A DNA stretch of 64,000 nt from Escherichia coli. Its GTDB lineage: Bacteria; Pseudomonadota; Gammaproteobacteria; Enterobacterales; Enterobacteriaceae. The DNA lies in assembly GCF_003334815.1 (NCBI RefSeq), contig NZ_QOWO01000025.1; one strand, 5' to 3'. Position 1 is the first letter of the stretch, and every line of letters starts with the position of its first letter. Below the pieces are notes generated by a model that had not been told where the DNA came from, did no database searches, and saw only the letters and a list, made by a program, of their open reading frames with translations. Made by a program: the position numbers and the translations under genes. Shown here piece after piece: positions 21,546 through 30,458 of this stretch.

Positions 21546-21894
21546 GGGTTAATCCTCTTTGACGTATAAATTGCTGCACCAAAGGTGAACAGCGAAAAAA
21601 TAAAAATTAAAAAAGTAGCGTTGAGAAAAGTCTCGCTGACTACAGGAACAGACTATTTTTCGCGACGCGAATTATCAATCTCTTTCTGTAACCAGAATGT
21701 AAGAACATGAGCAACCGCACATATTTTGATGATTTTTGTTACAAGGCTTAAGTTTGCGGTTGAAAGGCTTGCAGAAGAATAAAAGCGTGAAATTCCAGCA
21801 AGATGAAAGCGGTTACATTTTATTTAATTATGTTTTGTTATTTTAAATTTATTTTATGGATAAATTGCGAAGCGGAATTAATTCGCGAAGAAAA

Positions 21895-23988: not shown

Positions 23989-25935
23989 TTACTTTTTGAT
24001 TTCATACAGCGGTGTTTGACCCGCCACAACATGGCCCTGAGCTTTAATGATCAAGCCACTGAAATCGTCGATATTGCTGCAAACCACCGGGCTAATCATC
24101 GAGCGGGCGTTAGCGTTCAGGTAATCCAGATCCATTTCCAGAATCGGTTGCCCTGCGCTTACCTGCGCACCCTCTTCCACCAGACGTTTAAAGCCTTTAC
24201 CTTCCAGCGCTACGGTGTCGATACCCATATGGACGACGATCTCCGCGCCTTTTTCGGTTTCCAGGCAGAACGCGTGGTTGGTGTTGAAGATTTTCACGAT
24301 TGTCCCTGCGGCTGGTGATACGACGATTTTATCTGTCGGTTTCACCGCCACACCGTCACCCACCGCTTTGCTGGCGAATGCTTCGTCAGGAACCTGATCC
24401 AGTGCCACGACATCACCGGTAATCGGCGATACCAGCTCCGCGATAGATACCGCGTTTGGTACAGCCTGCGGTTTTGCTACAGGCGCGGCAGTTGCCGGAG
24501 TTGCTTCAGCTGACGCAGCGGCTACCGGACCACGGGCAACGACTTTCTTCATCGCATCGCCGATGGATTCTGCTTTCGCGCCAACAATCACCTGAATAGT
24601 CTGTTTGTTCAGTTTCACTACCCCAGAAGCACCCAGACGTTTACACATCGTATCGTTAACGCGGGCAGAGTCAGCCACTGTAAGGCGCAGACGGGTGATA
24701 CAGGCGTCAATCGCTTTCAGGTTGTCAGTGCCGCCAACCGCAGCAATATAGTTGGTTGCCAGTTGAGTCAGACCTTCTTCAGTGTTGCTGTTGGCTTCTT
24801 CAGTAACGATCTCGTCTTCTTTATCTTCACGACCCGGCGTTTTCAGGTTGAACATGCGGATAACCAAACTGAACACCACGAAGTAGATAGCGAAGAAGAT
24901 AACGCCCATCACCAGCAGCATCCAGACGTTCTGGCTGGCGGCCGGCAGGTTATACATCAACGCGTAGTCGATAGCCCCCGCAGAGAAAGAGAAGCCCGCG
25001 TGGATACCCAGCAGCGTTGCCACAAACAGGCTGATACCGGTCAGCAGTGCGTGCAGGAGGTACAGCAGCGGAGCAAGGAACATGAACAGGAATTCCAGCG
25101 GCTCAGTCACACCGGTCAGGAACGCAGTAACAGCAACAGAAAGCAGCATACCGCCAACCATCGGACGACGCTCTTTCGGTGCTGCGAAGTACATCGCCAG
25201 CGCCGCACCCGGCAGACCGAACATCATGATCGGGAAGAAGCCGGACATGAACATCCCCGCGGTGCCGTCACCGGCATAGAAGCGGTTAATGTCACCGTGG
25301 AAAACCGTACCCGCCGCGTTGGTGAATTCACCAATCTGGAACCAGGCGATGGTGTTCAGTACCTGATGCAGACCGGTTGGGATCAGCAGACGGTTGATGA
25401 AACCAAAGATACCGGAACCCAGCGCGCCCGCAGAAACGATCCACTCGCCGCCTGCATGGATAGCGTGCTGTACCGGCGGCCAGACGTAACCAAAAATGGC
25501 CGCCAGCACCAGGCAGAAGAATCCGGTGGCAATCGGCACAAAGCGTTTGCCGCCGAAGAAGCTCAGGAAGTCCGGCAGTTTAATATCGGACCAACGGTTA
25601 TAGGCTGCGCCACCAACCAGACCGGTAATGATACCCGCCAGTACACCCATGTTAATTTCTGGGTTGATGGTCACCATCGCTTTGGTTAACACAAAGTAAC
25701 CTACCGCACCCGCCAGCGCCGCCGCACCAGCGCTGTCTTTCGACCAGCTGGATGCCACACCGATGGCGAAGATTAATGCGAGGTTATCAAAAATCGCACC
25801 GCCCGCCTGGGCAATAAACGCAACGTTAAGTAAATCTGGCTGACCGAATCGCAGCAACAGTGCCGCCACCGGCAGCACCGCGATAGGGAGCTGTAACGCC
25901 CTACCGAGTCGCTGGAAAAAACCTAAAATATTCAT
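23989..25935 (-). CDS. nagE: PTS N-acetylglucosamine-specific EIICBA component
   Basis: 648-aa ORF MNILGFFQRLGRALQLPIAV...; EIIC membrane domain plus EIIB/EIIA. Confidence 0.95.
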   Translation of the reverse strand: MNILGFFQRLGRALQLPIAVLPVAALLLRFGQPDLLNVAFIAQAGGAIFDNLALIFAIGVASSWSKDSAGAAALAGAVGYFVLTKAMVTINPEINMGVLAGIITGLVGGAAYNRWSDIKLPDFLSFFGGKRFVPIATGFFCLVLAAIFGYVWPPVQHAIHAGGEWIVSAGALGSGIFGFINRLLIPTGLHQVLNTIAWFQIGEFTNAAGTVFHGDINRFYAGDGTAGMFMSGFFPIMMFGLPGAALAMYFAAPKERRPMVGGMLLSVAVTAFLTGVTEPLEFLFMFLAPLLYLLHALLTGISLFVATLLGIHAGFSFSAGAIDYALMYNLPAASQNVWMLLVMGVIFFAIYFVVFSLVIRMFNLKTPGREDKEDEIVTEEANSNTEEGLTQLATNYIAAVGGTDNLKAIDACITRLRLTVADSARVNDTMCKRLGASGVVKLNKQTIQVIVGAKAESIGDAMKKVVARGPVAAASAEATPATAAPVAKPQAVPNAVSIAELVSPITGDVVALDQVPDEAFASKAVGDGVAVKPTDKIVVSPAAGTIVKIFNTNHAFCLETEKGAEIVVHMGIDTVALEGKGFKRLVEEGAQVSAGQPILEMDLDYLNANARSMISPVVCSNIDDFSGLIIKAQGHVVAGQTPLYEIKK

Positions 25936-26058
25936 CTTATTCCCCCTACGAGAACCCTATTTGGCTCGTTTCAAGCCGTATTTTTATTTTGCTGCAAATT
26001 GTACTGCCGATGTTCTGTAATCAGATTGTTAGATCATCTGCTACAGAGTGTGTGAAAA

Positions 26059-26080
26059 TTTAATTCGTATCGCAAATTAA
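26059..26080. promoter_or_regulatory. Candidate NagC operator (palindrome)
   Basis: Near-perfect palindrome ttTAATTcgtatcgcAAATTAa in the nagE-nagB divergent region. Confidence 0.55.
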
Positions 26081-26092
26081 ACGCGTGTCTTT

Positions 26093-26108
26093 TGTGAGTT
26101 TTGTCACC
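26093..26108. promoter_or_regulatory. Candidate CRP-binding site
   Basis: TGTGAgttttgTCACC matches the CRP consensus TGTGA-N6-TCACA. Confidence 0.55.
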
Positions 26109-26267
26109 AAATATCGTTATCATCACTCCCTTTTACTGGCTAAACCAGAAAACTTATTTTATCATTCAAAAAATCAGGTCGGATTGACGCCTGTCTGCGC
26201 AAATCCAGGTTACGCTTAAAGATGCCTAATCCGCCAACGGCTTACATTTTACTTATTGAGGTGAATA

Positions 26268-28276
<2,009 letters not shown>

Positions 28277-28284
28277 GAGAAAGT

Positions 28285-29505
28285 ATGACACCAGGCGGAC
28301 AAGCTCAGATAGGTAATGTTGATCTCGTAAAACAGCTTAACAGCGCGGCGGTTTATCGCCTGATTGACCAGTACGGGCCAATCTCGCGGATTCAGATTGC
28401 CGAGCAAAGCCAGCTTGCCCCCGCCAGCGTAACCAAAATTACGCGTCAGCTTATCGAACGCGGGCTGATCAAAGAAGTTGATCAGCAGGCCTCCACCGGG
28501 GGCCGCCGCGCTATCTCCATCGTCACCGAAACCCGCAATTTCCACGCAATCGGCGTACGGCTTGGTCGTCATGACGCCACCATCACTCTGTTTGATCTCA
28601 GCAGCAAAGTGCTGGCAGAAGAACATTACCCGCTGCCGGAACGTACCCAGCAAACGCTGGAACATGCCCTGTTGAATGCCATTGCTCAGTTTATTGATAG
28701 CTACCAGCGCAAACTGCGCGAGCTGATCGCGATTTCGGTGATCCTGCCAGGGCTTGTTGACCCGGACAGCGGCAAAATTCATTACATGCCGCATATTCAG
28801 GTAGAAAACTGGGGGCTGGTAGAAGCTCTGGAAGAACGTTTTAAAGTGACCTGTTTCGTTGGTCACGATATCCGTAGTCTGGCGCTGGCGGAGCACTACT
28901 TCGGTGCAAGTCAGGATTGCGAAGACTCCATTCTGGTGCGTGTCCATCGCGGAACCGGGGCCGGGATTATCTCTAACGGGCGCATTTTTATTGGCCGCAA
29001 CGGCAACGTCGGTGAAATTGGCCATATTCAGGTCGAACCGCTGGGTGAACGCTGCCACTGCGGCAACTTTGGCTGCCTGGAAACTATCGCTGCCAACGCT
29101 GCCATTGAACAACGGGTGTTGAATCTGTTAAAGCAGGGCTACCAGAGCCGCGTGCCGCTGGACGACTGCACCATCAAAACTATCTGCAAAGCCGCGAACA
29201 AAGGCGATAGTCTGGCGTCGGAAGTAATTGAGTATGTCGGTCGTCATCTGGGTAAAACCATCGCCATTGCTATCAACTTATTTAATCCGCAAAAAATTGT
29301 TATTGCCGGTGAAATCACCGAAGCCGATAAAGTGCTGCTCCCTGCTATTGAAAGCTGCATTAATACCCAGGCGCTGAAGGCGTTTCGCACTAATCTGCCG
29401 GTGGTACGTTCTGAGCTGGATCACCGCTCGGCAATCGGCGCTTTTGCGCTGGTAAAACGCGCCATGCTCAACGGTATTTTGCTCCAGCATTTGCTGGAAA
29501 ATTAA
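28285..29505 (+). CDS. nagC: ROK-family transcriptional repressor NagC
   Basis: 406-aa ORF MTPGGQAQIGNVDLVKQLN...; N-terminal HTH plus ROK Zn site (HCGNFGC). Confidence 0.95.
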   Translation: MTPGGQAQIGNVDLVKQLNSAAVYRLIDQYGPISRIQIAEQSQLAPASVTKITRQLIERGLIKEVDQQASTGGRRAISIVTETRNFHAIGVRLGRHDATITLFDLSSKVLAEEHYPLPERTQQTLEHALLNAIAQFIDSYQRKLRELIAISVILPGLVDPDSGKIHYMPHIQVENWGLVEALEERFKVTCFVGHDIRSLALAEHYFGASQDCEDSILVRVHRGTGAGIISNGRIFIGRNGNVGEIGHIQVEPLGERCHCGNFGCLETIAANAAIEQRVLNLLKQGYQSRVPLDDCTIKTICKAANKGDSLASEVIEYVGRHLGKTIAIAINLFNPQKIVIAGEITEADKVLLPAIESCINTQALKAFRTNLPVVRSELDHRSAIGAFALVKRAMLNGILLQHLLEN

Positions 29506-30356: not shown

Positions 30357-30458
30357 GCCTGATGCGCTACGCTTATCAGGCCTACGCAGCTCCTGCAATA
30401 TATTGAATTTTCATGCTTTTGTAGGCCGGATAAGGCGTTCACGCCGCATCCGGCATGA
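30357..30458. repeat. REP/BIME elements
   Basis: gcctgatgcgctacgcttatcaggcctac ... gtaggccggataaggcgttcacgccgcatccggc. Confidence 0.85.

What the first reader, a model, noticed from the sequence alone, without database searches (positions are those of the whole stretch)
25936..26267. nagE-nagB divergent control region with NagC-type palindrome and CRP site
A 21-bp near-perfect palindrome (TTAATTcgtatcgcAAATTAA) and a consensus-like CRP site (TGTGA-N6-TCACC) lie 13 bp apart in the 332-bp divergent intergenic region. This matches the expected operator architecture for NagC repression with CRP activation of divergent nag promoters. A second A/T-rich candidate operator lies nearer nagB (about 26150-26175).
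Basis: partly seen in the sequence, partly recalled or inferred. Interest (0 to 1): 0.2.

Follow-up and report, generated by a model that had tools for sequence, protein, structure and literature searches.

The report
Known E. coli nagE-nagB control region
This is the well-studied switch between the E. coli genes for importing and breaking down the amino sugar N-acetylglucosamine, with two NagC repressor sites flanking one CRP activator site, so it is correct but ordinary.

Summary
Window 25936-26267 is the 332-bp nagE/nagB intergenic region of E. coli, 100% identical to many chromosomes and present in 5425 of 5426 complete genomes.

- **nagE operator:** the palindrome is TTTAATT-N9-AATTAAA at 26059-26081. 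It is the exact reverse complement of the published NagC nagE operator.
- **Independent scan:** a matrix built from 7 other NagC sites ranks these two sites 2nd and 3rd of 63,978 window positions. First is the known chiP site.
- **CRP site:** the core TGTGA-N6-TCACC lies at 26093-26108, between the operators. It is 72.5 bp upstream of a mapped nagB start at 26173.
- **Conservation:** in 64 of 79 related genomes, from Escherichia to Aeromonas and Photobacterium, the two operators sit 93-94 bp apart. In 57 of them the CRP core (2 or fewer mismatches) sits 30.5 bp from the nagE-side box, and its 6-bp spacer varies freely.

The mechanism is published: NagC bound at both operators loops the DNA and represses both promoters, GlcNAc-6-P releases it, and CRP activates. 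The nagE start site and the exact CRP footprint could not be retrieved.

Minor corrections: the arms are 7 bp in a 23-bp site, and only 8 of 11 position pairs are complementary.

The parts
23989..25935 (-). nagE, the GlcNAc-specific PTS transporter IIABC (648 aa)
   Evidence: NF007608 equivalog at 1448.6 bits, cutoff 1010. RefSeq annotation in an identical E. coli locus.
26047..26052 (-). Putative nagE -10 hexamer CACACT (inferred). It predicts a nagE start near 26039-26040, which would put CRP at about -60.5/-61.5.
   Evidence: GAGTGT at 26046-26051 is a conserved island (60 to >=95% identity per column) just outside the NagC box in 64 genomes. The position is inferred from the CRP class I distance. 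No nagE start site was recovered.
26059..26081 (.). NagC operator of nagE (the 'BoxE' site): TTTAATTCGTATCGCAAATTAAA, centre 26070. It is the weak, Mlc-like site, with A/T at +/-11.
   Evidence: Exact reverse complement of the published nagE operator. An independent 7-site matrix scores it 18.2, rank 2 of 63,978. TT/AA at +/-5,6. Conserved in 64 of 79 genomes.
26070..26075 (-). Putative nagE -35 hexamer TTGCGA, inside BoxE and 17 bp upstream of CACACT (inferred)
   Evidence: Read directly from the sequence. Consistent with the operator lying over the promoter. Not experimentally checked here.
26090..26111 (.). CRP (CAP) site TTTTGTGAGTTTTGTCACCAAA, core 26093-26108, centre 26100.5. One site is shared by both divergent promoters.
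   Evidence: 1 mismatch to the core and the only core with 2 or fewer mismatches in the region. It lies at -72.5 from the mapped nagB start. Half-sites are conserved while the N6 spacer varies in 57 genomes. nagB and nagE are known CRP targets.
26137..26142 (+). Putative nagB -35 hexamer TGGCTA (inferred)
   Evidence: Lies 17 bp upstream of TATCAT. Four of its six bases, TGGC at 26137-26140, are 60 to >=95% conserved; T 26141 and A 26142 are about 50% and 70%.
26153..26175 (.). NagC operator of nagB (the 'BoxB' site): CTTATTTTATCATTCAAAAAATC, centre 26164. It is the strong site, with C at -11 and +11.
   Evidence: Exact match to the published nagB operator. Matrix score 14.9, rank 3 of 63,978. 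TT/AA at +/-5,6 and C at +/-11. Covers the -10 hexamer and the start site of nagB.
26160..26165 (+). nagB -10 hexamer TATCAT, inside BoxB
   Evidence: Lies 7 nt upstream of the mapped start at 26173. PMC3946193 instead names TTTACT-17-TATTTT (26132-26137 / 26155-26160) as a predicted promoter.
26173..26173 (+). nagB transcription start (5' UTR 95 nt). A second 5' end lies at 26224 (UTR 44 nt).
   Evidence: Kim et al. 2012 (PMC3415461), supplementary file 2: K-12 positions 702,929 and 702,878. Converted with window = 729102 - K-12 coordinate, and checked against the printed upstream sequences.
26268..27068 (+). nagB, glucosamine-6-phosphate deaminase, first gene of nagBACD
   Evidence: NF001685 at 627.1 bits. 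Annotation.
28285..29505 (+). nagC, the repressor that binds both operators, encoded in the operon it controls
   Evidence: NF047937 TransRegNagC at 719.2 bits, cutoff 650.

Best explanation
This is the divergent nagE / nagBACD control region of E. coli. NagC, encoded downstream in the same operon, binds two 23-bp operators. The strong one (26153-26175) lies over the -10 hexamer and start site of nagB. The weak one (26059-26081) lies over the inferred -35 region of nagE. Their centres are 94 bp apart, about 9 helical turns, so NagC at both sites can interact on the same face of the DNA and loop out the intervening segment. That loop is what allows the weak nagE site to be occupied, and it represses both promoters. 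GlcNAc-6-phosphate, made when GlcNAc enters through NagE, releases NagC. A single cAMP-CRP site in the loop (centre 26100.5) activates both promoters from class I-type distances: -72.5 for nagB, using a measured start, and about -61 for nagE, which is inferred.

Shown here: gene identities, identity of both operators to the published ones, the nagB start site, and the evolutionary constraint on spacing and half-sites.

Taken from the literature: looping, inducer and CRP dependence.

Inferred: the nagE promoter hexamers and start site.
For: The region is 100% identical to E. coli chromosomes and present in 5425 of 5426 genomes. Genes are confirmed. Both operators equal the published sequences. 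A matrix from 7 other NagC sites ranks the chiP site, BoxE and BoxB 1st to 3rd in 64 kb. The family rules, TT/AA at +/-5,6 and C/G at +/-11 for strong NagC sites, are met as published. Loop-dependent repression of nagE is stated in PMC4288165, and the GlcNAc-6-P inducer in PMC8964723. The nagB start at 26173 places CRP at -72.5 and BoxB over -20 to +3. In 64 of 79 genomes the two best NagC hits are 93-94 bp apart. 57 of those have a CRP core with 2 or fewer mismatches exactly 30.5 bp from the distal box, with variable N6. nagB and nagE are known and SELEX-recovered CRP targets.
Against: No direct binding data could be generated. The original footprint and loop papers (Plumbridge & Kolb 1991, 1993, 1995; Plumbridge 2001) are not held, so the CRP footprint coordinates and the nagE start were not read. 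The only nagE-assigned start in the Kim 2012 table is a 2-read signal inside nagB, which is uninformative. The inferred nagE -10 (CACACT) is a poor hexamer. PMC3105977 says 'multiple' CRP sites exist in this spacer, but I find only one credible core. PMC4288165 writes '-11A,+11T' for the nagE operator whereas the sequence reads T and A. Both are A/T pairs, so nothing changes.
Confidence: 0.95

Rival explanations
1. The 26059-26081 palindrome is physiologically an Mlc operator rather than a NagC operator. Mlc is the glucose-regulon paralogue of NagC.
For: The site has A/T at +/-11, the signature of Mlc sites, and PMC4288165 calls it a hybrid Mlc/NagC site.
Against: The same paper states there is no cross-regulation at physiological protein levels. 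It also states that, with the nagB operator present, the site is preferentially regulated by NagC through looping. The partner site 94 bp away has the NagC signature, C at +/-11. nagC is encoded in the operon.
Confidence: 0.03
2. The palindrome and the CRP-like core are chance features of an A/T-rich intergenic region.
For: The region is 61% A+T. The bare CRP core pattern occurs as often as chance predicts in the window, 2 against 1.94.
Against: The sites match published operators exactly and rank 2nd and 3rd of 63,978 with an independent matrix. Spacing and half-sites are conserved in 57-64 of 79 genomes while neighbouring bases and the N6 spacer are randomised.
Confidence: 0.01
3. The palindrome acts at the RNA level, as a hairpin or attenuator in a leader transcript, rather than as a protein-binding DNA site.
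For: It is an inverted repeat. On the - strand it can form a 10-bp A/U-rich stem.
Against: Folding energies are only -1.5 and -5.6 kcal/mol, with z-scores of -0.11 and -1.42 against shuffles. It lies upstream of the inferred nagE start and of the mapped nagB start, so it is probably not transcribed. No Rfam family matches in the region.
Confidence: 0.01

Closest known systems
E. coli K-12 nagE-nagBACD divergent regulatory region (NagC operators with a CAP site; Plumbridge & Kolb)
   Same: It is the same locus. The sequence is identical to E. coli chromosomes, both operator sequences are identical to the published ones, and the gene order nagE / nagBACD is the same.
   Different: Nothing detectable. 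This is the known system itself.
Other NagC/Mlc (ROK-family) operators: chbB, manX, fimB, glmU, ydeN, chiP, galP, ptsG
   Same: 23-bp quasi-palindromes with TT/AA at +/-5,6. Strong NagC sites carry C/G at +/-11.
   Different: Here two sites cooperate over 94 bp to repress two divergent promoters. The nagE site alone is too weak to repress.
Loop-forming repressor systems with an enclosed CRP site, such as gal (GalR OE/OI), deo (DeoR/CytR) and lac
   Same: Two operators in helical phase, repression through a DNA loop, and cAMP-CRP acting at the same promoters. This comparison rests on established knowledge.
   Different: The repressor family differs (ROK rather than LacI/GalR). A single CRP site inside the loop serves both divergent promoters.

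Membership tests
NagC operator (NagC/Mlc ROK-repressor binding site) | 23-bp quasi-palindrome with invariant TT at -6,-5 and AA at +5,+6 (criterion from PMC4288165) | tested here: met
   Both 26059-26081 and 26153-26175 have TT/AA at these positions (criterion).
NagC operator (NagC/Mlc ROK-repressor binding site) | C or G at +/-11 in high-affinity NagC sites; A/T marks Mlc-type or weak sites | tested here: met
   The nagB box has C at -11 and +11. The nagE box has T and A, exactly as published for the weak wild-type nagE operator.
NagC operator (NagC/Mlc ROK-repressor binding site) | Identity or similarity to experimentally defined operators | tested here: met
   Exact matches to the nagE and nagB entries of PMC3098098 Table 1. 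A matrix that leaves out nagE, nagB and chiP scores them 18.2 and 14.9, ranks 2 and 3 of 63,978.
NagC operator (NagC/Mlc ROK-repressor binding site) | Cognate regulator gene present | tested here: met
   nagC at 28285-29505, NF047937 at 719.2 bits against a cutoff of 650.
NagC operator (NagC/Mlc ROK-repressor binding site) | Physical binding of NagC (footprint or gel shift) and relief by GlcNAc-6-P | not testable with these tools
   Literature only: PMC4288165 and PMC8964723. The primary footprint papers are not held.
NagC loop-repressed divergent nag promoters | Two operators in helical phase, an integral number of turns apart, with spacing under constraint | tested here: met
   Centres are 94 bp apart, about 9 turns of 10.5 bp. 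In 64 of 79 genomes the two best hits are 93 bp (10) or 94 bp (54) apart, despite divergent intervening sequence.
cAMP-CRP class I activator site | 22-bp site with a TGTGA-N6-TCACA core | tested here: met
   TGTGAGTTTTGTCACC at 26093-26108 has 1 mismatch and is the only core with 2 or fewer mismatches in the region.
cAMP-CRP class I activator site | Centre near -61.5, -72.5, -82.5 or -92.5 from the start site | tested here: met
   For nagB, the start at 26173 puts the centre at -72.5. For nagE the start was not recovered. A distance of -60.5/-61.5 is inferred from the conserved ACACT block.
cAMP-CRP class I activator site | Half-sites under selection while the spacer is free | tested here: met
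   In 57 genomes the left half is TGTGA (50) or CGTGA (7). The right half is TCACC (47) or TCACT (8). N6 conservation is only 0-50% per column.
cAMP-CRP class I activator site | CRP binding and cAMP-dependent activation | not testable with these tools
   nagB and nagE are listed as known CRP targets recovered by genomic SELEX (PMC3105977). Site coordinates are not given in the text.

The most novel reading that the evidence does not exclude
The BoxE-CRP-BoxB module behaves as an evolutionary unit more stable than the gene it controls. It keeps its 93-94 bp operator spacing, its 30.5 bp CRP offset and even the non-consensus TCACC half-site from Escherichia to Aeromonas and Photobacterium. The adjacent nagE leader and coding sequence come in two lineages that are only about 45% identical and patchily distributed, even within Enterobacter. 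The DNA homology break sits right at the inferred nagE -10. This would mean repeated replacement of the transporter gene by a foreign homologue, through recombination at the promoter edge. It is a side observation, not part of the finding as written, and it may already be described.
Probability: 0.3. Interest if true: 0.3.

Novelty: already known. Interest (0 to 1): 0.07.

Why it matters
It has little importance as a discovery. The nagE-nagB region has been a standard model of loop-mediated repression combined with CRP activation since about 1990. Its value here is as a positive control: a reader working from raw sequence placed both NagC operators and the CRP site correctly. The cross-genome comparison adds a clean phylogenetic footprint. 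Operator spacing is fixed at 93-94 bp, the CRP offset at 30.5 bp, and the CRP spacer varies freely. This fits the published loop model, and it shows that the module persists next to two very different nagE lineages.

Tried and rejected
- **Consensus promoter scan:** it found neither nag promoter, only a weak match at the nagB ATG. That is expected for activator-dependent promoters, so the scan was not used.
- **Bare CRP core statistics:** not significant across the window. Significance had to come from position and conservation.
- **Primary papers:** attempts to read them failed (10.1093/nar/29.2.506, PMC29661, PMC2446801, PMC4288677). The Conway 2014 supplements are not held.
- **Text search for the CRP site sequence:** it returned only human IgG hinge primers, or nothing. 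A search for 'nagE 61.5 CRP' returned clinical papers.
- **RNA-hairpin reading of the palindrome:** rejected on folding energy and the absence of an Rfam match.
- **Third NagC-like site (26248-26270):** it lies over the nagB ribosome-binding site, 95 bp from BoxB, and scores 10.5-11.7. I tested it as a possible alternative loop partner. It is not conserved outside Escherichia, so I treat it as chance.
- **Second CRP site:** the next-best core has 3 mismatches, at 26059-26074, and is just the left arm of BoxE.
- **Shimada 2014 predicted nagE promoter (GTGACA-19-TTTAAT):** it would put CRP at about -31 and overlaps the CRP half-site. It is not compatible with CRP activation and was not adopted.

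Full report
**What is there.** Window 25936-26267 is the 332-bp spacer between two divergent genes. The gene on the - strand (23989-25935, 648 aa) is the GlcNAc PTS transporter NagE (NF007608, 1448.6 bits). The + strand carries NagB (26268-27068), NagA, NagC (28285-29505; NF047937, 719.2 bits) and NagD. glnS lies beyond nagE. The spacer is 100% identical to many E. coli chromosomes. It occurs in 5425 of 5426 complete E. coli genomes, at 99% identity or more in 5095 of them. RefSeq annotates the flanks as nagE and nagB-nagA-nagC-nagD. So the window is E. coli, and this is the nagE/nagBACD control region.

**Checking the observation.** The symmetric unit is TTTAATT-N9-AATTAAA at 26059-26081, centre 26070. 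It has perfect 7-bp arms and a largely asymmetric 9-bp centre, and 8 of 11 position pairs are complementary. One such repeat in 332 bp compares with 0.02 expected. The CRP-like core TGTGAGTTTTGTCACC is at 26093-26108, centre 26100.5, with one mismatch to TGTGA-N6-TCACA. The bare pattern is not rare in 64 kb (2 found, 1.94 expected). It is, however, the only core with 2 or fewer mismatches in the spacer.

**Identity with published sites.** Table 1 of PMC3098098 lists known NagC operators compiled from El Qaidi & Plumbridge 2008 and from J. Plumbridge. It gives nagB as CTTATTTTATCATTCAAAAAATC and nagE as TTTAATTTGCGATACGAATTAAA. These are exact matches to 26153-26175 (+) and to the reverse complement of 26059-26081. 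The genome positions in that paper (703,020-703,043 and 702,949) fit the conversion window = 729102 - K-12 coordinate.

To avoid circularity I built a symmetrised matrix from the 7 listed sites that lie outside this window. Across 63,978 positions, the top three hits were:
- the chiP/ybfM operator at 21654-21676 (also left out of the training set), score 21.5;
- the nagE box, score 18.2;
- the nagB box, score 14.9.

The next hit scored 11.3. PMC4288165 gives the family rules: invariant TT/AA at +/-5,6, and C/G at +/-11 for strong NagC sites against A/T for Mlc-type sites. Both boxes have TT/AA. The nagB box has C at -11 and +11. The nagE box has T and A, which matches the published description of it as a weak, hybrid site.

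**Promoters.** Supplementary file 2 of Kim et al. 2012 (PMC3415461) lists nagB 5' ends at K-12 702,929 (UTR 95 nt) and 702,878 (UTR 44 nt). These convert to window 26173 and 26224, and the printed upstream sequences match. With the start at 26173:
- the -10 hexamer is TATCAT (26160-26165);
- the nagB operator covers -20 to +3;
- the CRP centre is at -72.5, a standard class I distance by established knowledge.

No usable nagE start was found. I infer one near 26039-26040, which would put CRP at about -61. The basis is a conserved block, GAGTGT at 26046-26051, which reads ACACTC on the nagE strand. It lies where a -10 hexamer (CACACT, 26052-26047) would be. TTGCGA, 17 bp upstream (26075-26070), lies inside the nagE operator. 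This step is inference.

**Related genomes.** A scan of one genome per species with NagB returned 80 loci from Enterobacterales, Vibrionales, Aeromonadales and Pasteurellales. I analysed 79 of them.
- In 64, the two best NagC-matrix hits in the 450 bp upstream of nagB are 93 bp (10 loci) or 94 bp (54 loci) apart.
- In 57 of those 64, a CRP core with 2 or fewer mismatches lies exactly 30.5 bp from the distal box centre. In 2 more it lies at 29.5 bp.
- The left half-site is TGTGA (50) or CGTGA (7). The right half-site is TCACC (47) or TCACT (8).
- A column-by-column profile shows conservation of 80% or more, often 95% or more, over the arms of both boxes, at TGTGA and at TCACCAAA. The N6 spacer (0-50%), most of the inter-site DNA and the leaders are much less conserved.

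This is the signature of protein-binding sites held in fixed helical register. It agrees with the published statement that repression of nagE depends on cooperative NagC binding with the nagB operator through a DNA loop. The inducer is GlcNAc-6-P. nagB and nagE are listed as known CRP targets recovered by genomic SELEX.

**Rivals.**
- An Mlc-only reading of the nagE box conflicts with the literature and with the NagC-type partner box.
- Chance is excluded by the exact matches and by the conservation.
- An RNA-hairpin reading fails. Folding energies are -1.5 and -5.6 kcal/mol with z-scores of -0.11 and -1.42. There is no Rfam match in the region, and the site lies upstream of the promoters' starts.
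- A weak third NagC-like hit over the nagB ribosome-binding site (26248-26270) is not conserved outside Escherichia.

**Open points.**
- The primary footprint papers are not in the held library.
- PMC3105977 mentions 'multiple' CRP sites in this spacer. I see only one credible core.
- PMC4288165 writes '-11A,+11T' where the sequence has T and A. The difference has no consequence.

**Verdict.** The feature is the already known nagE-nagB regulatory region. Interest is low.

Noticed in passing
window 25936-26045 and nagE 23989-25935; loci L003, L007, L010-L013 and others against L002, L004-L006, L008, L009, L014: Two deeply different nagE lineages occupy the same position upstream of nagB. The E. 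coli type is found in 13 loci. The second type is also a GlcNAc-specific PTS IIBC (TIGR01998, 560 bits on a partial protein). It is about 45% identical to E. coli NagE over the first ~390 residues (37-43% over the first 150), although NagB in the L007 genome compared is 95% identical. The two types split even within Enterobacter: E. cloacae has the E. coli type and E. asburiae the other. A genome labelled E. coli (L003) carries the second type. DNA homology to the window begins at about 26046, the edge of the inferred nagE -10, so the control module is kept while the leader and the gene differ.
   Followed up: partly
window 21654-21676 (-): An exact match to the published proximal NagC operator of chiP/ybfM (GATAATTCGCGTCGCGAAAAATA). 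It is the top NagC-matrix hit in the whole window. Weaker hits lie nearby at 21829-21851 and 21859-21881.
   Followed up: partly
window 26108 and 26109-26111: The non-consensus right half-site of the CRP site (TCACC, not TCACA) and the following AAA are conserved in about 80-90% of 64 genomes, although the adjacent N6 spacer is randomised. This suggests selection for this particular sub-optimal half-site.
   Followed up: partly
window 26248-26270: A weak NagC-like 23-mer (score 10.5-11.7) with TT/AA at +/-5,6 overlaps the nagB Shine-Dalgarno sequence and ATG, 95 bp from the nagB operator. It is not conserved outside Escherichia and is probably chance.
   Followed up: yes
window 25962-25978: A small G+C-rich hairpin lies in the nagE 5' leader. 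On the nagE strand it folds at -7.6 kcal/mol (z -2.9). The scan flags it as terminator-like on the opposite strand. Its function is unknown.
   Followed up: no
window 26224: A second nagB 5' end appears in the Kim 2012 start-site table, 51 nt downstream of the main start. It has no convincing -10/-35 hexamers, so it could be a processing site or a minor promoter.
   Followed up: no
window 30378-30420 (-): An Rfam match to the ES036 (CssrF) sRNA family, 41.1 bits against a gathering score of 37.6, in the nagD-asnB spacer.
   Followed up: no
loci L045, L048, L050, L052, L057, L059, L071, L072 (Vibrio, Aliivibrio): In these genomes nagB is not next to nagE. It carries a single strong NagC-type box (for example CTTATTTTATAATGCGAATTAAT) about 50 bp upstream of the ATG, with no CRP core and no partner box at 93-94 bp.
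   Followed up: no
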